This document shows positions 6,210 through 61,810 of a stretch of DNA of 64,000 nt, piece after piece. A model generated the notes under the pieces. It was given only the letters and a program-made list of their open reading frames with translations, did not search any database and was not told the DNA's origin. Where the stretch lies: contig BPJL01000002.1 in the NCBI GenBank assembly GCA_026004595.1, positions 1,431-65,430 of the forward strand. The letters run 5' to 3'. This DNA is from Patescibacteria group bacterium. GTDB lineage: Bacteria; Patescibacteriota; WWE3; UBA101185; UBA10185. Each line of letters begins with the position of its first letter. Positions within the stretch are counted from its first letter, which is position 1. The position numbers and the translations under genes are program-made.

Positions 6210-8018
6210 ATGTCATTTGATTTTATACCAAAAAAAGAGTGGAATTTTGGGCTTTTATATGATAGGTACGATAAAAAAGCCCTAGAAGAGGAGCTGGAGG
6301 ACATAAAGAAGCGAAATCTGGAGTTTGCGGCGAAATGGCGGGATAGAAAAGATTATTTAGAAAATCCGGAAATATTGAAGCAGGCGCTGGATGAACTTGA
6401 GCAGATAGAGGCTACTATAGGAACCTCTGGAAAGCCCGGTTATTATTATTGGCTTAAGTACCAGCTTGATCAGCAGAATACCGAAATCAAGGCGGAGCTT
6501 GGAAAAATTGAGGATTTGGGAACTTACTTGGAGAATGAGCTTGAGTTTTTTAGACAGAATATTTCAAGAATCCCTGTAGAGAAACAGCAGATGTTTTTAG
6601 ATTATCCGGGCTTGGCAGAGTATAGGCACATGTTGGAAAGAATGTTTATCGCGGCAAAGTACTTGCTAAGCGAGCCCGAGGAAAAGATATTGAATTTGGT
6701 ATCAAAGACTGCTCACGGAAACTGGGTGGAGATGATTTCTGATTTTCTATCCAGAGAAGAAAGAAAAGTATTAAATGAGGATGGCTCGGAATCGGTAAAG
6801 AATTTTTCTGAAATTTTAGACACTATAAATAGTATAAATAAAAAGGTTCGGGATTCGGCGGCAGAAGCTTTGAATGACATTTTTGCCAAGGTAGCGCCTG
6901 TGGCGGAGTATGAGCTAAATTCGGTTTTGCATAATAAAAAGGTATCGGATGAGTTGAGGGGATTTAAGAGGCCTGATGAGTCAAGGCATGTTTCGGATGA
7001 TATTGACAGCGAGGTTGTTGACAGTTTGATTGAGGCAGTCAGTTCAAGGTTTGACATTTCCCAAAGATATTACAAGCTAAAGGCCAAACTGCTGGGCGTG
7101 GAAAAACTCCAATATCATGAGAGAAACGTGGATTTTCAAAAACCGGATGTGAAGTATGATTTTGAGAAATCGGCGGGGTTGATTTCCAAAGTGTTCGCGG
7201 GGCTGGACGAGGAGTTTAGGGGGATTTTTGAGAATTTCTTGAAAGAGGGTAGGATTGATGTCCACCCTAAAAAAGGAAAAGACTCGGGGGCTTTTTGCGT
7301 GCACATGGAGAAAGACCTGCCGGTTTTTGTGATGTTGAATCATACAGGAAGACTTAACGATGTGACGACATTGGCTCATGAGATGGGGCATGCGATTAAT
7401 TTTGAGCTGATGAAGAAGAAGCAGAACGCTTTGAATTGCGGAACTTTTACCTGCACGGCTGAAGTTGCAAGCACTTTCATGGAGGATTTTGTTTTGGATG
7501 AATTGGAAAAGGATGTTGATGACGAGGGAAGATTGGCGATTTTGATGGAAAGATTAAATGGTGATATATCGTCAATTCAGAGGCAGGTTGCATGCTACAA
7601 CTTTGAGAAGGATCTTCATACTATATATAGGAGTGAGGGGTATTTGTCTTTGGAGAAGATCGGCGGGTTATTTTTAAAGCATATGGGGGCTTATTTGGGT
7701 GAAGCGGTTGAGCTTTCAAAGGGTGCCGAAAACTGGTGGGTTTATTGGAGCCACATCCGAAGCTATTTTTATGTTTATTCTTACGCGTCGGGTGTAATGA
7801 TCTCAAAAAGTCTGAAAAAAATGGTTGAGGACGATTCGGCTTTTGTGAAAAAGGTAAAGAGGTTTTTGGAATTGGGGACTTCTGTATCTCCCAGGGATGC
7901 TTTTGGTGAGCTGGGGGTGGACATTGGGGAAAAGAGTTTTTGGATGAAGGGGCTTGAAGAGTTGGATAGGATGTTGAGTGAAGCCGAGGGGTTGGCGGGG
8001 AGGTTGGGGAGGGGTTGA
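6210..8018 (+). CDS. pepF: Oligoendopeptidase F (M3B metallopeptidase)
   Basis: HEMGHAINFE zinc motif; ~600 aa with M3 family layout. Start taken at ATG 6210, 7 nt after the extended -10 TGATATAAT (6194-6202). The ORF track begins at 6186. Confidence 0.85.
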   Translation: MSFDFIPKKEWNFGLLYDRYDKKALEEELEDIKKRNLEFAAKWRDRKDYLENPEILKQALDELEQIEATIGTSGKPGYYYWLKYQLDQQNTEIKAELGKIEDLGTYLENELEFFRQNISRIPVEKQQMFLDYPGLAEYRHMLERMFIAAKYLLSEPEEKILNLVSKTAHGNWVEMISDFLSREERKVLNEDGSESVKNFSEILDTINSINKKVRDSAAEALNDIFAKVAPVAEYELNSVLHNKKVSDELRGFKRPDESRHVSDDIDSEVVDSLIEAVSSRFDISQRYYKLKAKLLGVEKLQYHERNVDFQKPDVKYDFEKSAGLISKVFAGLDEEFRGIFENFLKEGRIDVHPKKGKDSGAFCVHMEKDLPVFVMLNHTGRLNDVTTLAHEMGHAINFELMKKKQNALNCGTFTCTAEVASTFMEDFVLDELEKDVDDEGRLAILMERLNGDISSIQRQVACYNFEKDLHTIYRSEGYLSLEKIGGLFLKHMGAYLGEAVELSKGAENWWVYWSHIRSYFYVYSYASGVMISKSLKKMVEDDSAFVKKVKRFLELGTSVSPRDAFGELGVDIGEKSFWMKGLEELDRMLSEAEGLAGRLGRG

Positions 8019-8221
8019 GAATAGCTCACGCCGCACATTTTGTGAAGTATCCTATAGGAAAAAAAGCCACGACCTATAATTTATTTGACAATTAGATGAA
8101 TTATTAGTAAAAGGATATTAGGAATTTTGCCTATGCAGGCAAACTTCCCTGCCCCGATTGGCAGGCAAAATGCCACGAGAAAAATATACAGAAAATTGCA
8201 GAAAAATAGTTATGTGTTAAA

Positions 8222-8250
8222 AGCACGCTAGAGGCGTGTTTTTTTGTTGT
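8222..8250 (+). terminator. Rho-independent terminator hairpin CACGC-TAGAG-GCGTG followed by T7, in the pepF-giant gene spacer
   Basis: Perfect 5-bp stem followed by TTTTTTT. Confidence 0.35.
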
Positions 8251-8336
8251 AATTTTTTAGAGATTTTGGGATGGGGGGTAGCAAGAAGAGGGACAAGAAG
8301 TATTTGAAAATTTAATTAGTTAATTTTGAGAATGCA

Positions 8337-8468
8337 ATGAAATCTGCTGCGCAACATGGTCGCTTGCGGCAGACGGAGCAAGTAGCGAAACCGGTCTCTC
8401 TGTTGAGGTCGGTTTTTTTATCAGAAGAGTTCTGGCCAACTTTTCTGATGCACCGTAAAAAATTATGA
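8337..8468 (+). CDS. Candidate 43-aa upstream ORF. Its TGA stop overlaps the ATG of the giant surface-protein gene (ATGA)
   Basis: ATG 8337, in-frame stop at 8466-8468. Encodes MKSAAQHGRLRQTEQVAKPVSLLRSVFLSEEFWPTFLMHRKKL and contains a hairpin plus T-run. Speculative. Confidence 0.2.
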   Translation: MKSAAQHGRLRQTEQVAKPVSLLRSVFLSEEFWPTFLMHRKKL

Positions 8469-11400
8469 AGCTTAAAAAAACGATAACAAGAATAGCAAAG
8501 CTCAAAATAAAAAAAGATACGCGTAAGAGAATTTATCTGAACATCGCAATACTGTCGATGTTACTAAACAGTTTTTATCCGTTCCTTGCTTCCTATCAGT
8601 ATGTGTATGCCGAAGACGAGAAAGCGGTTGTTGAGGAAACTTCTTCAAGTGAAGAAGACTCTGACAGCGCAGAGGAATCCAGCGCGCCGGAGGAGACGGC
8701 TTCAGAAGAAGCTGACACGACTGAAGAGCCAGCTCCAGCAACAGAAGAGACCGATCCCGTAGACACGACCGAGTCTACCGGTGAAGTGTTAGGAATCTCA
8801 ACAGAAGACCAGAATGCTACCGAAGGTACCGATAGTGCCGTGGGAACCGAAGGTATTGCCGAGACACAGCCCGTTGCTGATGAAGCTCAATTGCCGGATA
8901 TTTTGCCGGATGGGGTGAGTGATTCTAGACCGGTTGGGAGTGAGCCCGCGTCTGAAATTATTCCTGTTACTGATACTACCAATCAGGATTTAGATCAACT
9001 TTCAGTTTATAGGCTGTCACATGTCGCTGATGGATTAGGGTCATGTCCGATGACAGGAGCTATTTGGACGACGGATAGCAATTGTACGGTAACTAATCAA
9101 AATATTTACTTTAGCAAATCAGAAGTTTACTTAAATGGCGGACCAGCTGGGAACGGAGGAGGCCCCGGCCTTCCTGACGGGAATTACTATGTAAGGGTTA
9201 CAGATCCAAGTGGTAAAGCTATTCTTGGTGAAAGCAATGAGCCCTCGGTTACTGTATCCGGGGGGGTTTTCGGAGAGTGCTATAAGCTTCAGAATGTAGT
9301 AGGCTATGATAGTACTAGTGGGTTTAAAGATACAACTAATCCAGGTGGTGAGTATAAAGTGTGGGTTAGCCCGGACAAAAATTTTAAGGATTGTTCTAAA
9401 ACCGATAATTTCAAAGTTTTGGAAAAAGGGTTCTGTGGCGACGGCAACGTGAACGCCCAAAACGAACAGTGCGACGACGGAAATAGAGATAATAATGACT
9501 ACTGCAGCAATACATGTCAATTTAACTCCGTTTGTATTCCAGATGTAAATATGCTCGTTAATGGAGATTTTGAAACTCCGGAAGTAACTAGTCATTATAA
9601 ATGGGATATATTCAATATGTATTCGCCAATGTTAGGTTGGAATGTGGTATGGAACGGAGGAAGTGCTAGTTATAGCGGACAAACAAGGCCTGAACCTGCA
9701 TACCTTGAATTACACAGAGATGTAAACGGGTGGAGTTCAGCATCTGGTAGTCAGTACGCTGAACTAGACACCGATTGGGACGGTCCTGGGAATCCGTTGA
9801 ATAACGAGCCTGCAACGGTAGGAATCTCTCAGGAAATTCCTTTAATAGACGGATATAAGTACAAAGTCAAATTTTCATATTCTCCAAGACCGGGGACAGA
9901 TGCTTCGAACAATGTCATGGATTTCGCCTGGGATGGGACAACAGTCGATACCTATTCCGGCGCTGGTGGAGGCAACACCTCTTGGACACCGAAATCTTAT
10001 GAGTTCGTTGCGGGCAAGACCGCTATTACAAATGTAGCTTTTGTCGAAAAAGGCACAGCGGATTCACTTGGGATGTTCTTGGATAATGTTAGCGTTACCT
10101 GTTTGGGGCCTGAAATAATACCTAAATGTGGCGACGGGTTGTTGAACCAGACGACGGAGGAATGTGATGGAACTTCTGGTGTCACATTAGGCAAGAACTT
10201 CTGTACATACAATTGTAAACTGGTACCAATTTACGATGGCGCCCACACGTGTTCTGAGGGGAAATATCCGGTTGCTTATAGCGGGCCTTTCACAATATCT
10301 AGTACCGATGGTGATGGGATAACCATTCCTGTGGTAGGCGGGAAAGAATATCTGTTTAAAGTATCCGGCACTTTTGTTCCAACCGGAGCTTCTGGTTACA
10401 TCTCTGACGCGGGGTATACATTGATAAACGGAGTACTTGCAAATCAGTATGGGATAAAGGGAACACCCCCTGATTTAGGTACCCACGCTTTACTTGGAAA
10501 TTTTGGGGAGGGTGTGGGTATAGTTGATTGGGGTAACTACAACAGCGAGCATATTTATACCAAAGCCTATACATTTGATAATAATGATAATAATTACGAT
10601 ATTAACTTCTTGATAGGTGATAGATACGATAATTGGTTTAATACAGCTTGGAACAACCAGGATGGAATGAAGGATAATTCCGGGAATCTTTCCTTAACGG
10701 TTTACGAATGTGCCACCCCTGTTTGTGGAAACGGACAGCGCGAGTTTGGGGAAGAGTGCGACGGAACCGATGGAATCAAATCAGGAGAAAACTTCTGTAC
10801 ACCCACCTGCAAACTGATACCCCTTTATGATGGGGAACACATGTGTGCGCCAGGAACTACACCGGTAAAAGTTGGCGATACCTATGTCATAGATTCTAAA
10901 GATAGTGATGGGGTTACAGTACCTCTAATTGGTGGCCAGGAATATCTTTTCAAGGTTTCGGGAACATATAAATTCGGTGCCCCCAATGATAATCGAGTTG
11001 CTGATGCAGCTTATGGCTCAGAGAACTCTTGGACTTCGGTAAGAACCGATCTTGGCATTTGGGGGAGCTCGCTTCGTGGGGTACTTTCACTGCTAGGGAA
11101 TTTGGGAATGGGTATTGGTGTAATAGAGTGGGATAACGACTCAATATTTGATCAAGACCACGCGTATGAAAAGGTATTTACTCCAGCGAGTGATATGTCA
11201 GCCCAATTTTTAATTAGTGATTGGTATAGTAACTGGTACGAAAATACATGCAAGAACCAAAGCTGTATGAGCGACAACAAGGGCTCTCTGAGTTTAGAGG
11301 TGTATGAGTGTCAGCCCTCTTCGAATGTTACCGTCTGTAAGTACGATAGTAAAAATAAACCGCTTACGGGATGGAACGTTTCTCTTAAAGGTGATTTGGT

Positions 11401-13552
11401 GGGTACGTTGAATGTATTGCCTAATGGTTCTGACTATAACTCAGCCGGGTTGCCAGTTGGTGATTATGTCTTGGAGGCGAGCGGTTACTATACGTACAGA
11501 CCCGGAACTGCTGGTGCGGAGTATACAGATGCCAACTACTCAAAGAGACACCCTAGTGATCCTGTCTACGGGGGACCTTACATACCTTGGGTCAATGTAA
11601 ATTCTTTCCCGTCCCCACACACAGGTTGGTTAGGTGTGATGGTTAACGGGGCTCCTACAAACTGGAGTGATTATTATGCATCAGATCACAAATATTTGCT
11701 TGGATTTGAGAATTATAGTGGCCCCTTCTCCTTTAAGATATTGGACGATGTCTATACTGACAATAGCGGAAGTATAACAGTTAATATATATAAAGGTTAC
11801 GCTGGGGTTACCGGAGAAGATGGTTGTGTAACATTTAAGGATGTCCCATTAGGTGACTATAGACTAGATGAAACACTCAAAGATGGTTGGGTGAATTTGA
11901 ATGAAACGAGAGGGAAACGGGTCAGTGTTGATGGACAAGAAGATCGTTTTACCCTCGTAAATGAAGATTTAAGTGATGTGGGTTTAGATATTTCAAAGAC
12001 GAATCTTAACTGGCCTGATCAACTGCAGAGTGGAGATATAGTAACGTACCAGATAACTATAAGAGCAGTAGGAGGCCCGCTATTCGATGTATTTGTTGTT
12101 GACCTCCCGCCTACAGGATTTGTGCCCGGTAACTTTCAGACATCTGCAAGTATAGAAGGACTTCCAACTTATGCCTCGCCCGGTAAATGGCACATTGGTG
12201 ATATGGAAGAAGGAGATGAAATAGTTCTTACATACGATGCTGTGGTGGGTTCAGATGTTGATCCGGGTGTCTATCCTGATCTAGCGTGGGCTTATGGGAG
12301 TAACATAATTGGAGGTAAAATAATCGCAAATTCAAAAGAGAGTGGTTTTGCTGTTAATAATGGGATTGTAAACGAAACTTTTGTTGGTACGCAAGTCGAG
12401 GTGGTCAGGGAAAATGAGTCGCCAAAAGTTAAAACCGAAGTAGACGAAAAGACCGTTGAAGAAGGAGTACTTGGTGCTTCTACCGCAAGACTCCCTGCCA
12501 CCGGTCAAAATGTAGTAATACTAATTTCTGTCTTAGCGCTTATGCTTACAGGTACTCTAATAATGGCTCTGTCAAGGAAAAAGAAAATTCTGAAGATACT
12601 TCCGATACTTTTTCTTGCAGCAGCTCTATATGGTGGAATGGATAGCGTATTAGCAGCCAATCTTTCTGTACGAATTGAGGATCCAAAGTCTCCTGTTAAC
12701 AGCCCGTTCCAGGTAACATTTGTTGTACTCAATGCCGATCCTAACGAGGGCGATTTGCACTATCAGTGTTGGATAGATGGTCCCACAAGCGGCTGGGAAA
12801 AGTTGGGTAGTGAAGGTACCTTGCCTAACGAAGGAGGTACAGATGTCTGTGATGTTACAGAATCTGTGTTGACAAGCGACGGTTTATACAGCATTAAAGT
12901 TGTTGTTGAAGGGGTTGAGTCTGCTACGGTATCAACAACATACGACAACACCCCACCCAGCAAACCCAAATACATCGAAGTTGACAGAAAATCCGCCTGC
13001 AAATACGAAATAGAATTCAAAACAGCCAACGACGGCCAAACATCATACGTTGAAGTGTACATGTCAGATGATAAAGAATTCACAGCAGGCTCCGGAAGCA
13101 GGATAAGAACCATAACGATAGGCCCCGACCAAAAATACAAGTTTACCGAAGAAGTTGCTGGAGATAAATGCGCCCACAGACAATACTTTGCCGTTCGCGC
13201 CTTTGATTCCGCAGGCAACGGGTCAAAGGTTGAAGCCGAAGAAGTGACAGACATTGAATACAAGACAATATATAAAGAAGGGACCGAAGAAGTAACCCAA
13301 GAAGCCTACGCCGGAGGAGCGGCTTCATCTATTGGCGCAGGAGCGGGTGAAGAAGGCGCCGAAGTAGTTACGTCAGAAGAAGAAATGCCTAGCGAAGAAG
13401 GAAGCATTTTGGGTGAGCAGGCCCAAGCGGAAACCGGAGCCGAAAAAGGATTCTTTGGCAAACTCATCTCAAGCCCCTGGACATGGATAATACTAATCTT
13501 GGCGCTCGGAATAATAACGATAAATGGAATCAGAAAGAGCAAGAAAGAATAA
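8465..13552 (+). CDS. Giant secreted cell-surface protein (1695 aa as read). Signal peptide, acidic S/T/E/D-rich linker, three CGDG/CGNG...ECDDGN cysteine-rich repeats (Myxococcus-type), two ~245-aa tandem modules, DUF11/CARDB-like region, and an LPATG sorting signal at residues ~1343-1376. An extra ~320-aa C-terminal module with its own hydrophobic leader and C-terminal TM may be a separate gene
   Basis: Single long ORF. Signal peptide MKLKK...YVYA. Repeated CxDGxxNxxxEQCDDGN motifs at ~9430, ~10130 and ~10730. LPATG at 12491-12505, then hydrophobic stretch and SRKKK. A 1-nt change in the A5/A4 tract at 12578-12587 would end the protein as ...SRKRKF*. Confidence 0.7.
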   Translation: MKLKKTITRIAKLKIKKDTRKRIYLNIAILSMLLNSFYPFLASYQYVYAEDEKAVVEETSSSEEDSDSAEESSAPEETASEEADTTEEPAPATEETDPVDTTESTGEVLGISTEDQNATEGTDSAVGTEGIAETQPVADEAQLPDILPDGVSDSRPVGSEPASEIIPVTDTTNQDLDQLSVYRLSHVADGLGSCPMTGAIWTTDSNCTVTNQNIYFSKSEVYLNGGPAGNGGGPGLPDGNYYVRVTDPSGKAILGESNEPSVTVSGGVFGECYKLQNVVGYDSTSGFKDTTNPGGEYKVWVSPDKNFKDCSKTDNFKVLEKGFCGDGNVNAQNEQCDDGNRDNNDYCSNTCQFNSVCIPDVNMLVNGDFETPEVTSHYKWDIFNMYSPMLGWNVVWNGGSASYSGQTRPEPAYLELHRDVNGWSSASGSQYAELDTDWDGPGNPLNNEPATVGISQEIPLIDGYKYKVKFSYSPRPGTDASNNVMDFAWDGTTVDTYSGAGGGNTSWTPKSYEFVAGKTAITNVAFVEKGTADSLGMFLDNVSVTCLGPEIIPKCGDGLLNQTTEECDGTSGVTLGKNFCTYNCKLVPIYDGAHTCSEGKYPVAYSGPFTISSTDGDGITIPVVGGKEYLFKVSGTFVPTGASGYISDAGYTLINGVLANQYGIKGTPPDLGTHALLGNFGEGVGIVDWGNYNSEHIYTKAYTFDNNDNNYDINFLIGDRYDNWFNTAWNNQDGMKDNSGNLSLTVYECATPVCGNGQREFGEECDGTDGIKSGENFCTPTCKLIPLYDGEHMCAPGTTPVKVGDTYVIDSKDSDGVTVPLIGGQEYLFKVSGTYKFGAPNDNRVADAAYGSENSWTSVRTDLGIWGSSLRGVLSLLGNLGMGIGVIEWDNDSIFDQDHAYEKVFTPASDMSAQFLISDWYSNWYENTCKNQSCMSDNKGSLSLEVYECQPSSNVTVCKYDSKNKPLTGWNVSLKGDLVGTLNVLPNGSDYNSAGLPVGDYVLEASGYYTYRPGTAGAEYTDANYSKRHPSDPVYGGPYIPWVNVNSFPSPHTGWLGVMVNGAPTNWSDYYASDHKYLLGFENYSGPFSFKILDDVYTDNSGSITVNIYKGYAGVTGEDGCVTFKDVPLGDYRLDETLKDGWVNLNETRGKRVSVDGQEDRFTLVNEDLSDVGLDISKTNLNWPDQLQSGDIVTYQITIRAVGGPLFDVFVVDLPPTGFVPGNFQTSASIEGLPTYASPGKWHIGDMEEGDEIVLTYDAVVGSDVDPGVYPDLAWAYGSNIIGGKIIANSKESGFAVNNGIVNETFVGTQVEVVRENESPKVKTEVDEKTVEEGVLGASTARLPATGQNVVILISVLALMLTGTLIMALSRKKKILKILPILFLAAALYGGMDSVLAANLSVRIEDPKSPVNSPFQVTFVVLNADPNEGDLHYQCWIDGPTSGWEKLGSEGTLPNEGGTDVCDVTESVLTSDGLYSIKVVVEGVESATVSTTYDNTPPSKPKYIEVDRKSACKYEIEFKTANDGQTSYVEVYMSDDKEFTAGSGSRIRTITIGPDQKYKFTEEVAGDKCAHRQYFAVRAFDSAGNGSKVEAEEVTDIEYKTIYKEGTEEVTQEAYAGGAASSIGAGAGEEGAEVVTSEEEMPSEEGSILGEQAQAETGAEKGFFGKLISSPWTWIILILALGIITINGIRKSKKE

Positions 13553-14207
13553 CAAAAAGAAGAAAACCCAAGCCCAACGAGGCCCAGTCCTTTACAGACT
13601 GGGTCTTGCTTTTGTTGCCCTATCTTTCGCGGCCCTGGTGATAATTCTTTATCCCGCAATCTCAAACGAACTTAAATACCGCTTTAACCCGCCCAAAGCC
13701 GACGCCGAAGTTTTCATTACTCCTAATTCGCACACTGAAAAGCATTACATAGTTGCCGCCGACCCCTATTTAAGCATTGTGATACCCAAAATCGGAGCCA
13801 ACGCTAAGATAATAAAAGATGTTAATCCTCAAGACAGCAAATCTTACCAAAAAGCCCTTACTCAAGGGGTAGCCCACGCCCTAGGCACGGCTCTTCCCGG
13901 CCAAACAGGAAACGTTTTTCTTTTTGCCCACTCTTCCGACAACATAATAAACGCAAACAGATATAATTCGGTGTTTTACCTTTTGAATAAAATGGAAAAA
14001 GGCGATAAAGTTTATCTCATTTTCAACCGCAGAAAATTCACCTATACGGTTACCGATACGAGAATTGTATCTGCCGAAGACGTTTCATATATGCAACCCC
14101 AATCAGAAACGCCAAAAGTTACCTTGATGACATGCTGGCCCGCGGGTACGACTCTAAAACGCTTAATCGTAGTGGCAGAAATATTACCAGAACAACCTAA
14201 ACTCTAA
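13524..14207 (+). CDS. srt: Sortase (transpeptidase), membrane-anchored
   Basis: N-terminal TM. Catalytic signatures LFAHSS (His), LMTCWP (TLxTC Cys) and KRLIV (Arg). Overlaps the end of the LPATG protein gene by 29 nt. Confidence 0.8.
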   Translation: MESERARKNNKKKKTQAQRGPVLYRLGLAFVALSFAALVIILYPAISNELKYRFNPPKADAEVFITPNSHTEKHYIVAADPYLSIVIPKIGANAKIIKDVNPQDSKSYQKALTQGVAHALGTALPGQTGNVFLFAHSSDNIINANRYNSVFYLLNKMEKGDKVYLIFNRRKFTYTVTDTRIVSAEDVSYMQPQSETPKVTLMTCWPAGTTLKRLIVVAEILPEQPKL

Positions 14208-14221
14208 AATCTAGACAAATA

Positions 14222-15535
14222 ATGTACTCAATATATAATCTGTCTATGCAATTAACAGATTTTGAATCTCCTCAAGCGCAATCAGGACAAGACCATGGTG
14301 AACCGACGGCTATAAGAGGGCGTCCTATAAGAATGCCTAAGACGGCGCAGACCCCGCAGATAAATGATTCGATCGGCAGTACATCTTCTGACGGTTTAAA
14401 TAATATGACTACATCTAAGAAAAAGAAAAAATTCGGCTTTTTCCTCTCCATATTTCTAGGTTTTATTATTGCAGCAGCCATAGGCGGAGTTTATTGGTAC
14501 ATAAAAAGTAATGAAGGCCCTCTAACCCCTGTCACCCCTGTTGGTAAAGGAGAAACAAAACCACAAGTGACACAAATAATGAACCCCCTGACTGGAAAAA
14601 TGTTTGCAGAAAATGCCGCAAACTGGGTTGATGATAGACCTTTTGGTGTAATGATGAATAACCATGTTGATGCCAGGCCGCAGTCAGGCCTGATCTACGC
14701 CGATATTGTGTATGAAGTGGTTGCAGAGGGCGGAATAACAAGATTTTTAACTTTCTACTACTCCAACACACCGGAAATAATAGGACCGGTGCGCAGCACT
14801 CGAGAATACTACCTTGTTTTGGTCAAAGAGCTAGGAGACGCGATGATAATGCATGACGGCTACTCGCCGCAGGCCTTATATGCCATAGACAACTGGCCTG
14901 TAAGAAGCCTTTTTAGGGGTGGAGCTACACTGCCTTCCGTTTGCGATGGGTGTGTTTGGAGAGATCAATCAAGAAATGTAGCTTACGAGCATACCGAATA
15001 CACAAACGGAGTAAAACTTAGAGAACTCGGAGATAGATTGGGTTGGCAAGGCAAAACCACAGTCAGGCCTTGGCTTTTCAAGGACGACCCAAACAAATAT
15101 GTCTCCGCACCCGAAGCTAAAGAAATCACCATAGATTACTGGTACCACGGAGATTACACAGGTCACTTTAAGTATGATCCGGTGTCAAACAAATATTTAA
15201 GATACACCGGAGTTGACGCCCAAGACCAACCAATTCCACACCTAGATCGGGAAACCCAAGAACAAGTTGCAGTTACCAACCTGATAGTTCAGTTTGCAGT
15301 AGAGTCAACCATTCCCGATGATGATAAAAGCCGCCTTAAGTACGAACTTCTAGGGAGCGGGAAGGCTATAGTGTTTGTGGATGGAAAAGTAATTGACGCT
15401 ACCTGGTCAAAAGCCGACAGAGATGATCGCACGATTTTCTACGATACTTCCGGTAAAGAGATAGAATTCAACAGAGGAAACTTTTGGATCGGCATTGTGC
15501 CTGACCGCAATGTTGATCAGGTAGTGTATAAGTAA
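14222..15535 (+). CDS. DUF3048-family membrane-anchored protein (YerB-like)
   Basis: N-terminal TM (FGFFLSIFLGFIIAAAIGGVYWYI). DUF3048-like core ADIVYEVVAEGGITRFLTFY. Confidence 0.65.
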   Translation: MYSIYNLSMQLTDFESPQAQSGQDHGEPTAIRGRPIRMPKTAQTPQINDSIGSTSSDGLNNMTTSKKKKKFGFFLSIFLGFIIAAAIGGVYWYIKSNEGPLTPVTPVGKGETKPQVTQIMNPLTGKMFAENAANWVDDRPFGVMMNNHVDARPQSGLIYADIVYEVVAEGGITRFLTFYYSNTPEIIGPVRSTREYYLVLVKELGDAMIMHDGYSPQALYAIDNWPVRSLFRGGATLPSVCDGCVWRDQSRNVAYEHTEYTNGVKLRELGDRLGWQGKTTVRPWLFKDDPNKYVSAPEAKEITIDYWYHGDYTGHFKYDPVSNKYLRYTGVDAQDQPIPHLDRETQEQVAVTNLIVQFAVESTIPDDDKSRLKYELLGSGKAIVFVDGKVIDATWSKADRDDRTIFYDTSGKEIEFNRGNFWIGIVPDRNVDQVVYK

Positions 15536-15637
15536 TGCTGCCCGGTTGGCCGGCCAAAGGCCTCTTTCTTTGCAGGAAGAGAGTAGTTTGTTAACGGGGC
15601 TGGAGACCCGGTTTTCTGCTCAGAAAAGGTCAAAAAT

Positions 15638-16234
15638 ATGTTAAAAAATATATTTGTGTCCGAAGTCAGGGTTAAAATCCTTAAGCTTCTTTTGCTTAAT
15701 CCCACTAAGTCGTTCCACGTTCGCGCCATTGTGCGGGCGGTAAAAGCTGAAATCAACGCTGTAAGAAGAGAGCTGGATAATCTTGTTTCCATAAATCTTC
15801 TTTCAAAAAGGCAGAGTTCAAACAAAATTTTCTATACCGTCAATGTCCTTCACCCGTATTTTCCTGATCTGGTTTCGCTTTTTGCCAAAGACGAAGGTGT
15901 GGGAGCCGAAATCATAAAGAGACAAAAAAAGCTCGGAAACATAAAATACGCTGTTTTATCACGCGCTTATCTTAGAGGCCGTCAATCCACGGCTTTAGAT
16001 GTTGATCTTTTTATAGTGGGGACGGTTGATGAATCGGAGCTTGATAAGTTGATTAAAGAAGCCGAGGCAACCACAGGACGCGAGATAAACTACACTGTAA
16101 TGGACGAAGAAGAATTTAATTACAGAAAAAGGACCTACGACCAATTTGTGATGAAAGTGCTTTCCCAAAGCCGCGCCATGCTGATAGGTGATGAAGAAGA
16201 ATTTTCATCAGTGATTGCCACCCTGCCGTCGTAA
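15638..16234 (+). CDS. Putative winged-helix DNA-binding protein with a C-terminal nucleotidyltransferase-like domain
   Basis: N-terminal wHTH-like segment (VRVKILKLLLLNPTKSFHVRAIVRAV); C-terminal region with LDVDLFIVG. No precise family assignment possible. Confidence 0.45.
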   Translation: MLKNIFVSEVRVKILKLLLLNPTKSFHVRAIVRAVKAEINAVRRELDNLVSINLLSKRQSSNKIFYTVNVLHPYFPDLVSLFAKDEGVGAEIIKRQKKLGNIKYAVLSRAYLRGRQSTALDVDLFIVGTVDESELDKLIKEAEATTGREINYTVMDEEEFNYRKRTYDQFVMKVLSQSRAMLIGDEEEFSSVIATLPS

Positions 16235-16252
16235 CAGATATAATCTCAAGGT

Positions 16253-17635
16253 ATGTTTAAGGATATTCGCATCCGTTTGGCATTAATTGGAACGCTTACT
16301 CTACTTTCATTGTTGATTGTGTTGCCCAAAATCCCTGTAAAAATGGATAACGCCTTCGCTCGGTTTGAGACAACCGTTGGGGGATACAATATCAGTTTAT
16401 TTAATGGCAAGTTCAAAAAGGATCTTAGCTCATTTAGAAAAGGTTTGGATTTAAGCGGTGGAATAAGAATAGTTCTTGAAGCAGATGTTTCAAAAATTGA
16501 ATCGGGCGACAAAGACGCCGCCCTTGAATCAGCAAAAGAAGTTATTTCACGTAGGGTTAATCTTTTGGGAGTTACCGAACCTTATGTAGCCACAACCAAA
16601 AGCGGAGACCAATACCGAATACTAGTTGAAATTCCCGGTCTGGATAATGTTACCGAAGCCGTCAAACTGATCGGCCAGACAGCCCAGTTAATCTTTATGG
16701 AAGTAAAGCCTGGTGTTGAATGGAGCCAAGACAAGATGTATGACTTTTATACCAACCTTGGTATGTGGCAGGATACAGAGGTAACCGGAGCTGACCTGAA
16801 AGGAGCAGATGTAGTAGTCAATCAGCAAACAAACATACAAAATCAAGGACCTCAAATCCGCCTAAAATTTACAAACGAAGGACGGGAAAAATTTTCGGAG
16901 CTGGCTAAAAGAAATGTGGGAAAACCTATCGGCCTGTTCTTAGATGACAGCCCGTATCCTTTATCTATGCCGATCGTGAGCGAAGACTTGGCCGGAGGCC
17001 TTACTGACGACCCCGTGATCAGCGGAAATTTTGATTTTGAAAGCGCTAAAAATTTGAGCATCCAAATCAGGGCGGGAGCTCTGCCCGTGCCTGTTAGAGT
17101 TTTGGAGCAGGAAACAATCGGCGCGACCTTGGGAACTGAATCGGTCCAAAAAAGTTTCTTTGCGGCGGGAGTCGGTCTTTTACTTGTCGTTGCATTCTTA
17201 ATTTTCAAATACGGAAAACTTGGTTTGTTTGCTGGAGGGGCTTTGTTTATTTATTCACTTCTTACGCTCGCCATATTTAAGATAGTTCCCGTCGTTTTAA
17301 CCCTCCCCGGTATTGCAGGTTTTATACTATCAATAGGAATGGCCACAGACGCCAACATACTTGTATTTGAAAGAGTAAAAGAAGAATTATTTTGGGGAAA
17401 GCCGAGCGATCTTGCTATTCATTTAGGTTTTGATAGAGCTTGGAATTCTATCAAAGACTCAAACATTTCTTCTCTCATCACTTCCTTTATTTTGTTCCAA
17501 TTTGGATCGGGCCCTGTAAAGGGGTTTGCCCTTACTCTGGCGATAGGAATTGCAGTGTCTCTGTTTACCTCAATATTTGTGGTGCGCACATTTATAGAAT
17601 GGTCACATGTGGGGAGGATAAAGAAAAATGGATAA
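16253..17635 (+). CDS. secD: Protein translocase subunit SecD
   Basis: 460 aa. Periplasmic domain plus C-terminal 6-TM block. Followed by secF with a 8-nt overlap. TATAAT at 16239-16244, 8 nt upstream of the ATG. Confidence 0.9.
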   Translation: MFKDIRIRLALIGTLTLLSLLIVLPKIPVKMDNAFARFETTVGGYNISLFNGKFKKDLSSFRKGLDLSGGIRIVLEADVSKIESGDKDAALESAKEVISRRVNLLGVTEPYVATTKSGDQYRILVEIPGLDNVTEAVKLIGQTAQLIFMEVKPGVEWSQDKMYDFYTNLGMWQDTEVTGADLKGADVVVNQQTNIQNQGPQIRLKFTNEGREKFSELAKRNVGKPIGLFLDDSPYPLSMPIVSEDLAGGLTDDPVISGNFDFESAKNLSIQIRAGALPVPVRVLEQETIGATLGTESVQKSFFAAGVGLLLVVAFLIFKYGKLGLFAGGALFIYSLLTLAIFKIVPVVLTLPGIAGFILSIGMATDANILVFERVKEELFWGKPSDLAIHLGFDRAWNSIKDSNISSLITSFILFQFGSGPVKGFALTLAIGIAVSLFTSIFVVRTFIEWSHVGRIKKNG

Positions 17636-18530
17636 ATTGATGAAATACAAAATTTGGTACCTTGTTTTCTCCGCTGCGGTTTTGCTCCCCGGCATCATTG
17701 CCCTTTTCATGTTTGGTCTTAACATGTCAATTGATTTTACGGGAGGGTCAGTTTTTAGATACCAATTTGAGTCTGATGTAAATACTGAAGAACTCGCAAA
17801 GATTTATTCTGAAAAAGGCATTGAGGTGGAGGCAGTCGTGCCCGAAAGCGGAACAAAATACAGCATCCGCACAAAGCCGGTGGAAGCCCAGAGAAATGAT
17901 GAAATAAAAGAGGCAGTAAGCGCAGTGTTTCCAAACGCGTCCCAGCTCTCTTTTGAAACGGTAGGGCCTTCAATTGGAGCTGAAACAACCCGAAGCGCTT
18001 TTATAGCTTTGGGGTGGGCGATGATAGGAATTACTTTATATATAGCTTTTGCATTTAGAAATGTTCCCAAGCCGTATTCAAGTTTTAGATTTGGAGTGAG
18101 CGCGGTGGTTTCCATGATTCATGACGCATTTGTATTGATAGGTCTTTTTGCAATTCTTGGGCACTTTTTCAAAGTAGAAGTTGACGGGTTATTTATTACA
18201 GCTGTTCTTACCGTTTTGGGATTTTCTGTGCATGACACCATAGTAGTTTTTGACAGGATAAGAGAAAATTTGGGAAAGCTTCCTAGGTCAATGAGTTTTG
18301 AAGATGTTGCCAACTACTCTTTGGCAGAAACTTTGAGCCGATCGGTGGCGACTTCTCTCACAGTCATTTTTACTTTAACGGCATTATATGTTTTAGGCGG
18401 GGAGACCATAAAAATGTTTGTGCTGGCAATGCTGGTGGGTATAATTTCCGGAACTTATTCCTCAATATTTACTGCCACTCCGGTGCTGGTACTCTGGGAA
18501 AACGCCGCCTCAAAGAAAAAATATAAATGA
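17628..18530 (+). CDS. secF: Protein translocase subunit SecF
   Basis: 300 aa; SecF-type TM topology immediately after secD. Confidence 0.9.
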   Translation: MDKLMKYKIWYLVFSAAVLLPGIIALFMFGLNMSIDFTGGSVFRYQFESDVNTEELAKIYSEKGIEVEAVVPESGTKYSIRTKPVEAQRNDEIKEAVSAVFPNASQLSFETVGPSIGAETTRSAFIALGWAMIGITLYIAFAFRNVPKPYSSFRFGVSAVVSMIHDAFVLIGLFAILGHFFKVEVDGLFITAVLTVLGFSVHDTIVVFDRIRENLGKLPRSMSFEDVANYSLAETLSRSVATSLTVIFTLTALYVLGGETIKMFVLAMLVGIISGTYSSIFTATPVLVLWENAASKKKYK

Positions 18531-55481: not shown

Positions 55482-56171
55482 ATGAATATCTTTGACGGGA
55501 TCCAGCTTCCTAAGATTATCTACGAGGCAGAATCAAAATATAACGGCAAAATTGAGGTATGGGAGGTCGGTAAAACCCGAAAAATAAAGGTTGAAAAGAT
55601 TGATCAGTCAATCTCTCACAAATCTTCCTCGGCAAACAGGTTGGTGTGGGGCAAGGTTGTAGAAATTTTGGAGGAAAATGCTCCCGATTTGCAGAAAGTT
55701 TTAATATTGGGTTTGGGTGGGGGTACGATGGCTCACATAATCTCAGAAAGATTTAATCATCCCGAAATTGTGAGTGTGGAAATTGATCCTGTTATGATAG
55801 ATATAGCGAGAAAATTTTTTGATTTAGATTCGATACCAAACCATAGGGTTATAGAGGCAGATGCTTTAAGAGTAACTATCGAACCCGAAGATTATGACCT
55901 CGAAGAAGAATATTTCAATGTTGTGATTGTTGATATATTTAATGGTGAGAAATATCCCGATTTGGGAAAGTCGGGAAACTTTATCGCTTCAGTTAAAAGG
56001 TTGGTGAGGCCGGGAGGCCTTTTAATTTTTAACCGAATTTATTTAGACCATCATCAAGATGATGTGAATATATTTATAGAATACCTTGGGGATTTTTTAC
56101 ATAATGTTACATGTCTGGTTGTTGCGGGGTATACAAATTCTGACAACGTTCTCATCTACGGGAAAGTTTGA
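55482..56171 (+). CDS. Spermidine-synthase-like / class I SAM-dependent methyltransferase-fold protein
   Basis: VLILGLGGGTMAHII...EIDPVMIDIARKFF...IVDIF pattern. ATG 55482 lies 8 nt after TGATAGTAT; the track ORF begins at TTG 55464. Confidence 0.55.
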   Translation: MNIFDGIQLPKIIYEAESKYNGKIEVWEVGKTRKIKVEKIDQSISHKSSSANRLVWGKVVEILEENAPDLQKVLILGLGGGTMAHIISERFNHPEIVSVEIDPVMIDIARKFFDLDSIPNHRVIEADALRVTIEPEDYDLEEEYFNVVIVDIFNGEKYPDLGKSGNFIASVKRLVRPGGLLIFNRIYLDHHQDDVNIFIEYLGDFLHNVTCLVVAGYTNSDNVLIYGKV

Positions 56172-56180
56172 TTTTTTGAC

Positions 56181-56983: not shown

Positions 56984-57023
56984 GAAAAACTGTACAGCTT
57001 TCGGTGCTATAATCAACTTCGAT

Positions 57024-61263: not shown

Positions 61264-61810
61264 TTGAATCTTTTGTTACAATCTCTTTTGGTTGTCCTTA
61301 TTTTGTACATGACGATAGGATCTGTGGAGGTTGTTTGGGGAGCAAGCATGGAGCCAAATTTTAAGTCCGGTGAAAGAATTCTTGTGGATAAAATTACAAA
61401 GAGTTTTAAGGACTATCAAAGGGGCGAGGTGGTGGGTGTTAGTTCCGCCTACGGAAACATCAAGACACTATATAAAGAGAATTATCGGTTTGCCCGGTGA
61501 CATAATGAAGGTGTTTGAATGCAAAATTTATATCTATCGTGATGGAAAGCAATTCGTTCTTGATGAGGATTATCTAGAACCTCGAGATTGTACAGAAGGT
61601 GGCTCTCAATTTTTGGAGGAGGGGCGTTCCCTAAAGATTCCTGAAGGGCATTATGTGGTTATGGGTGACAACAGAAGTAACTCTTTGGACTCCAGATTTT
61701 TTGGATTGGTTGATAGGTCAGAGATAGTTGGGGAGGGTTGTATTCCGTTTCTGGCCTCCGAACAAAGCGGGATTTATAAATTAGATGTTGACAACAATTT
61801 GACTATATGA
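61264..61810 (+). CDS. lepB: Signal peptidase I (bacterial S26A, LepB), split by one frameshift at a GGG run (61434-61436)
   Basis: N-terminal TM. SMEPNF serine box, KRIIGLPGD lysine box, VMGDNRSNSLDSR box E. Removing one G gives ...RGEVVVLVPPTETSRHYIKRIIGLPGD. Confidence 0.7.

What the first reader, a model, noticed from the sequence alone, without database searches (positions are those of the whole stretch)
12491..12640. Complete LPATG sorting signal sits in the middle of the ORF; an A-tract indel would terminate it exactly as a sortase substrate
LPATG (12491-12505) is followed by a 20-residue hydrophobic stretch and SRKKK, a textbook C-terminal cell-wall sorting signal. The ORF then continues for another ~320 residues that begin with a second signal-peptide-like segment (ILKILPILFLAAALYGG) and end in a TM plus KSKKE tail. 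Deleting one A from the A5/A4 tracts at 12578-12587 gives ...SRKRKF-TGA. Since the +1 homopolymer insertions found elsewhere in this window are +1 homopolymer insertions, the giant ORF is probably two genes: a ~1376-aa LPXTG protein and a ~305-330-aa downstream tail-anchored protein. If the fusion is real, it is an unusual internally processed protein.
Basis: partly seen in the sequence, partly recalled or inferred. Interest (0 to 1): 0.6.

Follow-up and report, generated by a model that had tools for sequence, protein, structure and literature searches.

The report
Internal sortase signal in fused surface-protein precursor
The mid-gene LPATG sorting signal is real and not a sequencing error: in many ultra-small (CPR/Patescibacteria) bacteria, a giant sortase-anchored surface protein and a small membrane-anchored partner are encoded either as one fused precursor, as here, or as two overlapping genes, always beside a sortase.

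Summary
Observation confirmed. ORF 8465-13552 (1695 aa) carries LPATG (12491-12505), a TM helix, SRKKK (A5-G-A4 at 12578-12587), a second signal-peptide-like segment ending VLA|AN, a roughly 300-aa module, and a final TM plus KSKKE.

The proposed indel is refuted. Four independent assemblies (one of the same strain, three of a 98.3%-identical strain from other samples) carry the identical junction DNA. All 21 homologues at 30-51% identity span the junction uninterrupted. 118 of 120 long family members have LPxTG 53-111 aa upstream of the module. 41 of 72 species-representative CPR genomes are fused, including the closed WWE3 genome.

The two-gene idea does match a real alternative form. In 29 of the 72 genomes the genes are split: the upstream gene ends LPxTG-TM-basic-stop, and in most it overlaps the downstream gene's SD/ATG. 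The downstream gene starts with a classical signal peptide homologous to the window's internal one. A sortase follows immediately in 65 of the 70 classifiable loci.

Best reading (inferred): a precursor cut by sortase at LPAT|G and by signal peptidase I at VLA|A. This gives a wall-linked adhesin and a tail-anchored tandem-FN3 protein.

Also found: a c-di-GMP-II riboswitch upstream (8321-8405), and real homopolymer frameshifts elsewhere in the window (uppP, secA).

The parts
8321..8405 (+). c-di-GMP-II riboswitch aptamer in the leader of the fused gene (context; probable regulator of the cassette)
   Evidence: Rfam RF01786, 56.5 bits vs gathering score 53.5, E 7e-10. The same family is found upstream of the orthologous fused genes in WWE3 loci L009 and L010, and the sequence is conserved in the related strain L080.
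8387..8420 (+). Terminator-like hairpin plus U-run whose 5' arm overlaps the aptamer's 3' segment (expression platform; an ON switch is inferred)
   Evidence: RNA fold -15.5 kcal/mol, z = -3.7, 12-bp stem followed by U7.
8465..8611 (+). N-terminal signal peptide of the precursor (basic n-region, hydrophobic core with an LLNSFYPF motif, VYA|ED site)
   Evidence: Translation. Hydrophobic 12-mer KD 2.23; 25/29 complete fused orthologues have an equivalent segment. The motif is enriched: 21/72 giant proteins vs 0/1500 random windows. Heuristic only; no dedicated signal-peptide predictor was available.
8612..12490 (+). N-module: giant extracellular adhesin-like region (acidic linker, three Cys-rich DUF4215/TIGR02232 repeats, SpaA/CnaB-like and DUF11-type domains, conserved EEGVLGAST box)
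   Evidence: Pfam SpaA at 1106-1158 and DUF4215; NCBIfam TIGR02232, a weak choice-of-anchor C hit, DUF11 repeat; the last ~250 residues are conserved in homologues; VLG box in 112/119.
12491..12505 (+). LPATG sortase recognition motif (predicted cleavage between T and G)
   Evidence: L, P, T and G are invariant in 22/22 aligned sequences; an LPxTG-type motif is present in 118/120 long homologues.
12509..12574 (+). TM1: stop-transfer helix of the sorting signal
   Evidence: KD 2.72 over residues 1349-1370; AF2 helix; conserved in all homologues.
12575..12586 (+). RKKK basic patch. It serves as the cytoplasmic tail of the sorting signal and also as the n-region of the internal signal peptide. 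It contains the A5-G-A4 tract and is the evolutionary hinge between fused and split forms.
   Evidence: It is identical in five assemblies. In split orthologues the same codons hold the SD and ATG of the downstream gene.
12587..12655 (+). Internal signal peptide: h-region ILKILPILFLAAALYGG plus c-region MDSVLA, with a predicted signal peptidase I site VLA|A between 12655 and 12656
   Evidence: It is homologous to the true N-terminal signal peptides of 35 stand-alone family members and 29 split loci. A strict -3/-1 site with an h-region is present in 39/41 fused loci vs 2.5% of random positions.
12656..13549 (+). C-module: two FN3-like beta-sandwich domains (each with a conserved Cys pair), an acidic disordered stalk with a second VLG box, TM3 (13478-13534) and an RKSKKE cytoplasmic tail. 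This makes it a tail-anchored surface protein.
   Evidence: AF2 pLDDT >90 for residues 1-195. Foldseek hits to tandem FN3 structures: contactin, RbmA, integrin beta4. 554 representatives in the 50%-identity library. No Pfam or NCBIfam family.
13524..14207 (+). Sortase gene overlapping the precursor's 3' end by 29 nt (N-terminal TM, TLMTC catalytic motif)
   Evidence: Pfam Sortase 7e-27; TIGR01076 above its cutoff but no class C/D/E/F cutoff reached; TLMTC at 200-204; adjacent in 36/41 fused and 29/29 split loci.

Best explanation
ORF 8465-13552 is a genuine, evolutionarily conserved fusion of two units of a three-part CPR surface cassette. The three parts are (1) a giant LPXTG adhesin-like protein, (2) a ~300-aa tail-anchored tandem-FN3 protein, and (3) a dedicated sortase.

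Shown: the fusion is not an assembly error. The same architecture occurs in more than 100 protein clusters and 41 species-level genomes. In other lineages the two units are separate genes, usually overlapping, whose boundary falls exactly at the basic patch.

Inferred mechanism:
1. The N-terminal signal peptide starts Sec export of the ~1300-aa N-module.
2. TM1 stops transfer.
3. RKKK stays cytoplasmic (positive-inside rule).
4. The next hydrophobic segment re-initiates export as an internal signal peptide.
5. TM3 and the KSKKE tail anchor the C-terminus.
6. The adjacent sortase cleaves LPAT|G and transfers the N-module to an envelope acceptor, most simply peptidoglycan/lipid II.
7. Signal peptidase I cleaves after VLA, freeing the tandem-FN3 module as an independent tail-anchored protein.
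8. The ~50-residue TM1-loop-signal hairpin is discarded.

The mature products would be the same as in split-gene relatives. Fusion enforces 1:1 stoichiometry and co-insertion at one translocon next to the translationally coupled sortase. In the WWE3 clade the cassette is probably switched on by c-di-GMP through a leader riboswitch.

Confidence, by part: about 0.97 that the fusion is real and conserved, and about 0.6 that both cleavages occur as described. The overall figure given is for the whole statement.
For: Not an error:
- The junction DNA is identical in the Logan DRR290133 contig, which matches the window at 100% over 8527-30167 and differs by one intergenic G-run over 6230-19552.
- It is also identical in three contigs from other samples of a 98.3%-identical strain.

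Conservation:
- 21/21 homologues span the junction, with LPxTG invariant.
- 118/120 long representatives have LPxTG 53-111 aa upstream of the module.
- 41/72 species genomes are fused, 27 of them with complete ORFs of 738-3170 aa.
- WWE3 junctions have different A-run lengths, yet the frame is always open.

Two functional units:
- 35 stand-alone modules begin with a classical signal peptide that ends right at the conserved LSVRIE start.
- In 27/29 split loci the upstream gene ends LPxTG-TM-basic-stop. In most of them it overlaps the module gene's SD/ATG; in L055 it lies in the same frame, separated by a single TAA.

Signals kept under selection in fused forms: a strict SPase site in 39/41 vs 2.5% at random positions.

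Sortase:
- It is adjacent or overlapping in 65/70 loci.
- It has a TLMTC motif and a TM anchor.
- The window holds only this one sortase-type substrate.

Extracytoplasmic C-module: two invariant Cys pairs and a confident tandem-FN3 model.

Wall and processing enzymes in the window: Peptidase_S11, UppP and a Peptidase_S26 fragment.
Against: - No protein-level data exist. Sortase cleavage, SPase cleavage, the topology and the acceptor are all inferred from sequence.
- A dedicated signal-peptide or topology predictor was not available; I used hydropathy and -3/-1 rules. The loose AxA rule is uninformative (74% of random positions pass); only the strict rule discriminates.
- The AF2 hairpin region has low confidence.
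- The sortase meets no established class cutoff, so its substrate and acceptor specificity are unknown.
- The role of the C-module is unknown. It has no conserved Lys or conserved new N-terminal residue that would point to a specific chemistry.
- The SPase I ORF in the window is N-terminally truncated, probably by an assembly error.
Confidence: 0.62

Rival explanations
1. Assembly artefact: a spurious extra A in the A5/A4 tract fuses a ~1376-aa LPXTG gene with a separate downstream gene.
For: The window does carry homopolymer-linked frame breaks and one likely +1 insertion elsewhere: G6 vs G5 at 8273-8278, and uppP A7 plus secA A6/T5/C7. Removing one A gives an immediate TGA. Split two-gene versions exist in other lineages.
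Against: The A5-G-A4 tract is identical in four other assemblies from four sequencing data sets. All WWE3 relatives and 118/120 long homologues are fused, with different junction DNA. After the deletion the downstream frame would have no ATG/GTG/TTG start upstream of ATG 12638, which lies beyond the signal-peptide core, so the module would lose its export signal. That is unlike every split orthologue.
Confidence: 0.01
2. The fusion is real and sortase cleaves, but the internal signal peptide is not cleaved. The C-module then stays attached to the TM1-loop-TM2 hairpin as a three-TM membrane protein.
For: Internal signal-like segments in polytopic bacterial proteins often act as uncleaved TM helices (general knowledge). 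No experimental cleavage data exist. The AF2 model shows a helical hairpin.
Against: The h-region is short (~17 residues, with Pro/Gly) and is followed by a strict -3/-1 Ala site in 39/41 fused loci vs 2.5% at random. It is homologous to N-terminal signal peptides of stand-alone modules. If no cleavage occurred, there would be no reason to keep the AxA site.
Confidence: 0.17
3. Sortase-mediated ligation: after both cleavages the sortase transfers the N-module's Thr1346 onto the C-module (its new N-terminus or a side chain). The hairpin is effectively spliced out, and the giant adhesin ends up tethered covalently to a membrane-anchored FN3 stalk instead of to peptidoglycan.
For: Adhesin, FN3 module and sortase are strictly co-inherited (65/70 loci). 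The window has a single substrate per cassette. The sortase scores closest, below cutoff, to pilin-polymerising class C. A tandem-FnIII plus TM protein (PamR) is proposed to tether a CPR pilus to the membrane (bioRxiv 10.64898/2026.03.03.709456).
Against: The predicted new N-terminal residue is not conserved (E, A, S, K, Q, L...). No Lys is invariant in the module across fused forms. Peptidoglycan-related genes are present, so the ordinary acceptor is available. There is no direct evidence.
Confidence: 0.1
4. Operon-within-a-gene: the C-module is mainly made by internal translation initiation near the basic patch (ATG 12563, or a non-ATG start after the AGGA at 12575-12578). The read-through fusion would be a minor or tolerated by-product.
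For: In split relatives the SD (AGGA/GGAG) and ATG lie in the codons of the basic tail. The window keeps AGGAAAAAG, and some WWE3 genes have an in-frame ATG 9-15 nt after it (L008, L009). ATG 12563 gives MALSRKKK-h-region, a plausible signal peptide.
Against: There is no consistently conserved internal start across fused genes (L010 has none; L007 and L012 have only TTG). Ribosomes translating the N-module meet no stop codon, so every N-module made is made as the fusion. Internal initiation could add to, but not replace, the polyprotein route.
Confidence: 0.08
5. Regulated frame switching: slippage or phase variation in the A-tract toggles between an LPXTG-only product (SRKRKF-stop) and the fusion.
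For: A +1 frame TGA lies immediately after the tract in this window. The tract is A-rich.
Against: A5/A4 is far shorter than runs known to give appreciable slippage (general knowledge). The window has 68 A-runs of six or more bases, so the tract is unremarkable. Five assemblies show no length variation. An alternative-frame stop just after the patch is not conserved in WWE3 relatives: none within about 15-30 codons in L007, L010 and L012.
Confidence: 0.02

Closest known systems
Canonical LPXTG cell-wall sorting signal of Gram-positive sortase substrates (Schneewind-type tripartite signal; TIGR01167-type)
   Same: LPxTG, then a ~20-residue hydrophobic helix, then a basic tail; an N-terminal signal peptide on the same protein; a cognate sortase encoded next door. 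In 29/72 related loci the signal is canonical and C-terminal.
   Different: Here and in 41/72 loci the signal is internal, with 348 residues following it. Its basic tail doubles as the n-region of a second signal peptide. The sortase belongs to no established class by NCBIfam cutoffs. The hosts are CPR/Patescibacteria, not Firmicutes or Actinobacteria.
Membrane polyproteins processed by signal peptidase at internal signal sequences: Flaviviridae structural polyproteins (PMC7601889), and, from memory, the Bradyrhizobium japonicum FbcH cytochrome b-c1 precursor
   Same: The layout is a stop-transfer TM, a short cytosolic basic loop, a signal sequence with a -3/-1 site, then the next ectodomain. 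One translation product gives two membrane or surface proteins.
   Different: Those systems use signal peptidase, plus viral proteases, for every cut. Here the first cut would be a sortase transpeptidation, which also attaches the product covalently. Bacterial examples are rare, and none I know of involves a sortase signal. The FbcH comparison rests on memory; my library search did not find it.
Sortase-cleaved C-terminal remnant ('C-pep') of streptococcal adhesins, which stays in the membrane and is sensed or degraded (from memory; mentioned in PMC11326707)
   Same: After sortase cleavage, the part C-terminal to LPXT|G remains in the membrane and can have a function of its own.
   Different: C-pep is a ~30-residue peptide. 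Here the remnant carries a full 300-aa folded surface protein with its own export signal and anchor.
PamR of the Pam pilus of the saccharibacterium Mycosynbacter amalyticus (bioRxiv 10.64898/2026.03.03.709456)
   Same: A CPR protein with a signal peptide, two tandem FnIII (RbmA-like) domains and a C-terminal TM helix, proposed to tether a surface filament to the membrane. The C-module's best fold matches include RbmA.
   Different: The Pam system uses donor-strand exchange and chaperones, not a sortase. No sequence was available to test homology. The resemblance is in architecture only.
c-di-GMP riboswitch-controlled sortase-anchored adhesins of Firmicutes (B. thuringiensis Cap, PMC4933901; C. 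difficile CD2831, from memory)
   Same: A c-di-GMP riboswitch sits in the leader of a large LPXTG-type adhesin gene.
   Different: This one is in WWE3 (CPR), it controls a fused adhesin/FN3-module gene plus a sortase, and its function is untested.

Membership tests
LPXTG-type cell-wall sorting signal (sortase substrate) | LPXTG pentapeptide | tested here: met
   LPATG at 12491-12505; invariant L, P, T, G in 22/22 aligned sequences.
LPXTG-type cell-wall sorting signal (sortase substrate) | Hydrophobic membrane-spanning segment directly after the motif, followed by basic residues | tested here: met
   Residues 1349-1370, KD 2.72, then RKKK.
LPXTG-type cell-wall sorting signal (sortase substrate) | Signal located at the extreme C-terminus of the protein | tested here: not met
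   348 residues follow the motif. The same holds in 118/120 long homologues. The feature is met only in the split orthologues (27/29 loci).
LPXTG-type cell-wall sorting signal (sortase substrate) | N-terminal Sec signal peptide on the same polypeptide | tested here: inconclusive
   A basic n-region, a hydrophobic core (KD 2.23) and VYA|ED are present. Only heuristic rules were available, not a trained predictor.
LPXTG-type cell-wall sorting signal (sortase substrate) | Cognate sortase present | tested here: met
   Sortase gene 13524-14207 with TLMTC; adjacent in 65/70 related loci.
LPXTG-type cell-wall sorting signal (sortase substrate) | Cleavage between T and G and covalent attachment to peptidoglycan | not testable with these tools
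   Needs biochemistry or proteomics.
Sec/SPase I signal peptide (for segment 12575-12655) | Basic n-region, 10-17-residue h-region, c-region with small residues at -3/-1 | tested here: met
   RKKK / ILKILPILFLAAALYGG / MDSVLA|A. The strict rule is met in 39/41 fused loci vs 2.5% of random positions.
Sec/SPase I signal peptide (for segment 12575-12655) | Located at the N-terminus of the translated protein | tested here: not met
   It begins at residue 1371 of 1695. It is N-terminal only in the 35 stand-alone homologues and the 29 split loci.
Sec/SPase I signal peptide (for segment 12575-12655) | Homology or positional equivalence to proven or N-terminal signal peptides of orthologues | tested here: met
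   It sits in the same position relative to the conserved LSVRIE start as the N-terminal signal peptides of stand-alone modules, e.g. P0154 ...GQVLA|ANLSVRLEQ.
Sec/SPase I signal peptide (for segment 12575-12655) | Actual cleavage by signal peptidase I | not testable with these tools
   A Peptidase_S26 ORF is present in the window (61331-61810, N-terminally truncated). Cleavage itself needs an experiment.
Sortase-assembled pilus locus (class C sortase plus pilins) | Class C sortase | tested here: not met
   NF033745 scores 72.8 bits vs cutoff 160. Only the generic TIGR01076 model passes.
Sortase-assembled pilus locus (class C sortase plus pilins) | Two or more LPXTG pilin genes, and a conserved pilin-motif lysine in the acceptor subunit | tested here: not met
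   There is one LPxTG signal in the window. No invariant Lys occurs in the C-module across fused forms.
Frameshift or assembly-artefact gene fusion | Independent assemblies or close strains disagree at the homopolymer | tested here: not met
   Five assemblies are identical at 12491-12660. By contrast the G-run at 8273-8278 does disagree.
Frameshift or assembly-artefact gene fusion | Close orthologues have two separate genes | tested here: not met
   All WWE3 loci (L007-L013) and the nearest representatives (P0026-P0030) are fused. Split forms occur only in more distant lineages.
PamR-like pilus tether (Pam system) | Signal peptide + tandem FnIII + C-terminal TM helix | tested here: met
   AF2 model and Foldseek hits, RbmA among the top; description of PamR.
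PamR-like pilus tether (Pam system) | Sequence homology to PamR and location in a pam operon with PapD-like chaperones | not tested
No chaperone-like genes were noticed next to the cassette.

The most novel reading that the evidence does not exclude
A widespread CPR-specific way of building the cell surface. A single precursor is split into two surface proteins by two different envelope enzymes: a sortase acting on an internal LPXTG signal, and signal peptidase acting on an internal signal peptide. In the boldest version the sortase then ligates the giant adhesin onto the co-translated FN3 stalk, excising the TM hairpin in a natural 'sortase splicing' reaction. The adhesin would then be covalently tethered to a membrane protein instead of to the wall. 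In WWE3 the whole cassette is under c-di-GMP riboswitch control.
Probability: 0.1. Interest if true: 0.9.

Novelty: new variant of a known kind. Interest (0 to 1): 0.62.

Why it matters
Sortase sorting signals are defined as C-terminal, and genome annotation and substrate-prediction tools rely on that. Here more than 100 protein clusters in the Candidate Phyla Radiation carry a perfectly conserved sorting signal in the middle of the protein, followed by a second export signal and a second surface protein.

If processing occurs as inferred, three things follow:
- It would be a natural bacterial polyprotein matured by sortase plus signal peptidase.
- Current predictors would miss or mis-annotate a major class of CPR surface proteins. 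Public names include 'hypothetical', 'Cna B domain protein' and 'RHS repeat family'.
- It identifies an unannotated, sortase-linked tandem-FN3 membrane protein family (at least 554 representatives at 50% identity, no Pfam or NCBIfam model) as an obligatory partner of the giant adhesins that these episymbiotic bacteria probably use to contact hosts.

The coexistence of fused, overlapping-split and in-frame-split forms also gives a clean natural experiment on gene fusion and fission at an A-rich hinge. On the practical side, it shows that a suspicious-looking homopolymer in an error-containing assembly can still be correct.

Tried and rejected
1. Assembly indel: rejected (and the comparative data).

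2. Phase variation or programmed frameshift on the A-tract: rejected. The tract is short, shows no length variation across five assemblies, and the alternative-frame stop is not conserved.

3. Loose AxA test: I first reported 42/42 and 29/29, then found that 74% of random positions pass it. I replaced it with a strict test.

5. Pfam and NCBIfam give no family for the C-module.

6. Literature searches for 'internal LPXTG', sortase + Patescibacteria/CPR, and LPXTG + polyprotein found no description of this architecture. The fbcH precedent was not found in the library.

7. Two contig look-ups failed, probably because of start-codon choice.

8. Pilus-locus membership: not met (class C cutoff, single substrate, no conserved Lys).

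9. The decayed-motif idea (LPATG as a relic in a plain three-TM protein) is rejected, because LPxTG is invariant and the sortase is always adjacent.

10. The NJ tree of C-modules suggests at least six fused/split switches and a fused root, but it is a rough distance tree without support values. I do not rely on the direction of change.

Full report
**1. The observation**

ORF 8465-13552 (+) encodes 1695 residues. Its features are:

| Feature | Window coordinates / residues | Source |
|---|---|---|
| LPATG, in frame | 12491-12505 (residues 1343-1347) | |
| Hydrophobic helix NVVILISVLALMLTGTLIMALS | residues 1349-1370, KD 2.72 | |
| R-K-K-K (AGG AAA AAG AAA; A5 12578-12582, G, A4 12584-12587) | 12575-12586 | |
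| Second hydrophobic stretch ILKILPILFLAAALYGG | 12587-12637 | |
| MDSVLA\|AN | 12638-12655, then 12656 onward | |
| Roughly 298 further residues ending in a TM helix | TM at residues 1672-1690 | |
| RKSKKE tail | 13532-13549 | |

Removing one A does give SRKRKF-TGA (+1 frame). The description is accurate. This is the only LPxTG+TM+basic signal in any ORF of the window.

**2. Is the fusion an assembly error? No.**

(a) The exact 1695-aa protein is also on a contig assembled independently by Logan from run DRR290133. That contig is 100% identical to the window over 8527-30167. Over 6230-19552 it differs at a single intergenic G-run, 8273-8278, which is G6 in the window and G5 in Logan. The A5-G-A4 tract is identical.

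(b) A 98.3%-identical strain was assembled from three other samples: JGI 3300029893 on a 768-kb contig, SRR5011273 and SRR6488477. It has the identical 170-nt junction. It also has G5 at the G-run, so the G-run, not the A-tract, is where this window has a likely +1 insertion.

(c) All 21 homologues found with a junction-spanning query (30-51% identity; WWE3, Microgenomates, other Patescibacteria) cover both sides in one ORF. L, P, T and G of the motif are invariant, as are many residues of the downstream module.

(d) An exhaustive search with the downstream module alone found 554 representatives at E ≤ 1e-3. Of the 163 sequences I could score, 120 carry the module more than 110 residues from the N-terminus, and 118 of these have an LPxTG-type motif 53-111 residues upstream (LPATG in 83).

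(e) In 72 loci from species-representative genomes, 41 are fused. The informatively labelled ones are all CPR; some MAGs carry doubtful Gammaproteobacteria or Pseudomonadales labels. 27 of the fused loci are complete ORFs of 738-3170 aa. The fused set includes every WWE3 genome and the closed WWE3 chromosome CP006914. WWE3 junctions use different DNA (A5, A6, A7 runs) and the frame is always open.

**3.

29 of the 72 loci are split. In 27 of them the upstream gene is a giant protein ending LPxTG-TM-basic tail-stop. In most of these the downstream gene's Shine-Dalgarno and ATG lie inside the codons of that basic tail. An example is L018...CTAAGGAAAAAATATGAGTAA..., where the upstream frame reads RKKYE* and the downstream frame reads MSK. 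In L055 the two genes are in the same frame, separated only by a TAA (RRKK*FMKRIF).

The basic, A-rich patch is therefore an evolutionary hinge. One substitution or a 1-nt indel converts one form into the other. On a rough NJ tree of the modules the two states are interspersed, with at least 6 changes by parsimony; I do not rely on the direction.

The 35 stand-alone module proteins begin with a textbook signal peptide that ends right before the conserved LSVRIExP start. P0154, for example, reads MRKIILSAIVSLAAVVTLTGQVLA|ANLSVRLEQ, against VLA|ANLSVRIED in the window. The window's second hydrophobic segment is therefore a signal-peptide homologue. A strict SPase I rule (Ala at -1, small residue at -3, hydrophobic core upstream) is met in 39/41 fused loci against 2.5% of random positions. 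A looser rule that I tried first is uninformative, since 74% of random positions pass it.

**4. The cassette**

A sortase gene (13524-14207) overlaps the ORF end by 29 nt. It has the Pfam Sortase domain (7e-27), an N-terminal TM helix and a TLMTC motif. It passes the generic sortase model but none of the class C/D/E/F cutoffs. A sortase starts within -117 to +47 nt of the module's stop in 36/41 fused and 29/29 split loci. Three of the five exceptions are contig ends.

The C-module folds confidently (pLDDT >90 over residues 1-195) as two FN3-like beta-sandwiches, each with an invariant Cys pair. These are followed by a disordered acidic stalk and a TM helix. Structure matches are generic tandem FN3 (contactin, RbmA, integrin beta4). 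It has no Pfam or NCBIfam family.

The N-module has Cys-rich DUF4215/TIGR02232 repeats, a SpaA/CnaB-like domain and DUF11-type repeats. It begins with a signal-peptide-like segment.

**5. Mechanism (inferred)**

- Sec export of the N-module.
- TM1 acts as a stop-transfer helix.
- RKKK stays cytoplasmic.
- The internal signal peptide re-initiates export.
- TM3 and the basic tail anchor the C-terminus.
- The sortase cuts LPAT|G and attaches the N-module to an envelope acceptor. Peptidoglycan is the default; Peptidase_S11 and UppP are encoded in the window.
- SPase I cuts after VLA. A Peptidase_S26 ORF is present.
- The ~50-residue hairpin is discarded.

The products equal those of split relatives. 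Fusion gives fixed stoichiometry and co-insertion next to the translationally coupled sortase. None of these steps has been observed, so they rest on sequence logic and on the split/fused comparison.

Rivals that remain open are: no SPase cleavage (a three-TM C-module), additional internal initiation, and sortase-mediated ligation of the adhesin onto the FN3 stalk. The ligation idea is weakened because neither the new N-terminal residue nor any Lys is conserved.

**6. Comparison with known systems**

Every element of a canonical sorting signal is present except its defining C-terminal position. Every element of a Sec signal peptide is present except its N-terminal position. The TM, basic loop, signal sequence and SPase-site layout is that of viral membrane polyproteins (PMC7601889) and, from memory, of the B. 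japonicum FbcH precursor. The idea that the post-cleavage remnant has a function recalls the streptococcal C-pep (from memory; mentioned in PMC11326707).

PamR of the Saccharibacteria Pam pilus (tandem FnIII plus a C-terminal TM, proposed membrane tether; bioRxiv 10.64898/2026.03.03.709456) has the same build, but in a sortase-independent system, and homology was not testable. Sortases are known to be common in CPR and near-ubiquitous in Microgenomates (PMC6744442). I found no paper describing this internal-signal architecture.

**7. Context found on the way**

A c-di-GMP-II riboswitch aptamer lies at 8321-8405 (56.5 bits vs a gathering score of 53.5). A terminator hairpin at 8387-8420 overlaps its 3' arm. 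The same family precedes the orthologous fused genes in WWE3 loci L009 and L010, but not seven more distant loci. This echoes c-di-GMP riboswitch control of sortase-anchored adhesins in Firmicutes (PMC4933901).

The 3' end of the window does contain homopolymer-linked frame breaks in essential genes: uppP at an A7 run, and secA at A6, T5 and C7 runs. It simply does not apply to this tract.

**8. Verdict**

This is a new variant of a known kind (sortase substrate / sorting signal) that is widespread in CPR and apparently undescribed. Interest is moderately high, limited by the absence of any protein-level evidence for the proposed processing.

Noticed in passing
window 8321-8405 (+), terminator 8387-8420; L009 4779-4863; L010 2759-2843: A c-di-GMP-II riboswitch aptamer (RF01786, 56.5 bits vs gathering score 53.5) sits 60 nt upstream of the fused gene's ATG. 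A strong terminator hairpin (-15.5 kcal/mol, z -3.7) reuses the aptamer's 3' AACCGG segment. The same family is found upstream of the orthologous genes in two WWE3 genomes, and the sequence is conserved in the 98%-identical strain; it was not found in seven more distant fused loci. This suggests that c-di-GMP switches on the adhesin/FN3/sortase cassette in WWE3.
   Followed up: partly
window 8273-8278: The G-run is G6 in the window but G5 in the independent Logan assembly of the same strain and in the related JGI strain. This is a probable +1 homopolymer insertion in the window, in intergenic DNA 43 nt upstream of the riboswitch.
   Followed up: yes
window 56171-56983 (uppP/bacA; break at A7 ~56404-56410) and 56990-59574 (secA; breaks near 57208-57213 A6, 57306-57310 T5, ~57635-57641, 57770-57776 C7): Essential genes uppP and secA are broken into several frames at homopolymer runs. 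These are almost certainly assembly errors concentrated at the 3' end of the window. By my arithmetic the Logan contig (50,149 nt from window 6230) ends at about 56,378, just before the first break.
   Followed up: partly
window 61331-61810 (+): A signal peptidase I (Peptidase_S26) ORF matches only profile positions 62-166 of 168, so its N-terminal part with the TM helix is missing from this frame. This is probably another frame break upstream; I did not resolve it.
   Followed up: no
window ~12458-12478 (EEGVLGA, before LPATG) and ~13388-13410 (EEGSILGE, before the last TM): A [VIL][LM]G box (typically EEGxVLG[AE]xT) lies 3-14 aa before LPxTG in 112/119 proteins (chance 5%). It also lies about 20 aa before the C-module's own TM anchor in 115/141 (chance 14%). 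The C-module tail thus looks like a sorting signal without LPxTG. The meaning is unknown: extended sortase recognition, a second processing site, or a common origin of both anchors.
   Followed up: partly
window 8561-8584 (residues 33-40, LLNSFYPF): The N-terminal signal peptides of many giant family members share an LLNSFxPF-like motif inside the hydrophobic core (21/72 giant proteins vs 0/1500 random windows). This may be a specialised signal-peptide class, comparable in idea to the YSIRK motif of Gram-positive LPXTG proteins.
   Followed up: partly
window 13524-14207: The cassette's sortase passes the generic sortase model (TIGR01076) but falls far below the NCBIfam cutoffs for classes C, D, E, F and GN (best: class C, 72.8 bits vs 160). 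It may represent an unclassified CPR sortase clade.
   Followed up: no
window 14222-18530; L003-L005, L080-L082: Downstream of the sortase, the gene order DUF3048 protein, small ArsR-like HTH protein, SecD, SecF, RecJ is conserved in the WWE3 relatives examined. The surface cassette therefore sits directly upstream of the Sec accessory genes.
   Followed up: no
L042 ~9400-9538: In one split locus the upstream gene's tail reads ...VLGASTDGYAATG...TM...KGKKNK. It has a VLG box and TM/basic tail but a degenerate motif (YAATG) instead of LPxTG, and it ends about 360 nt before the module gene.
   Followed up: no
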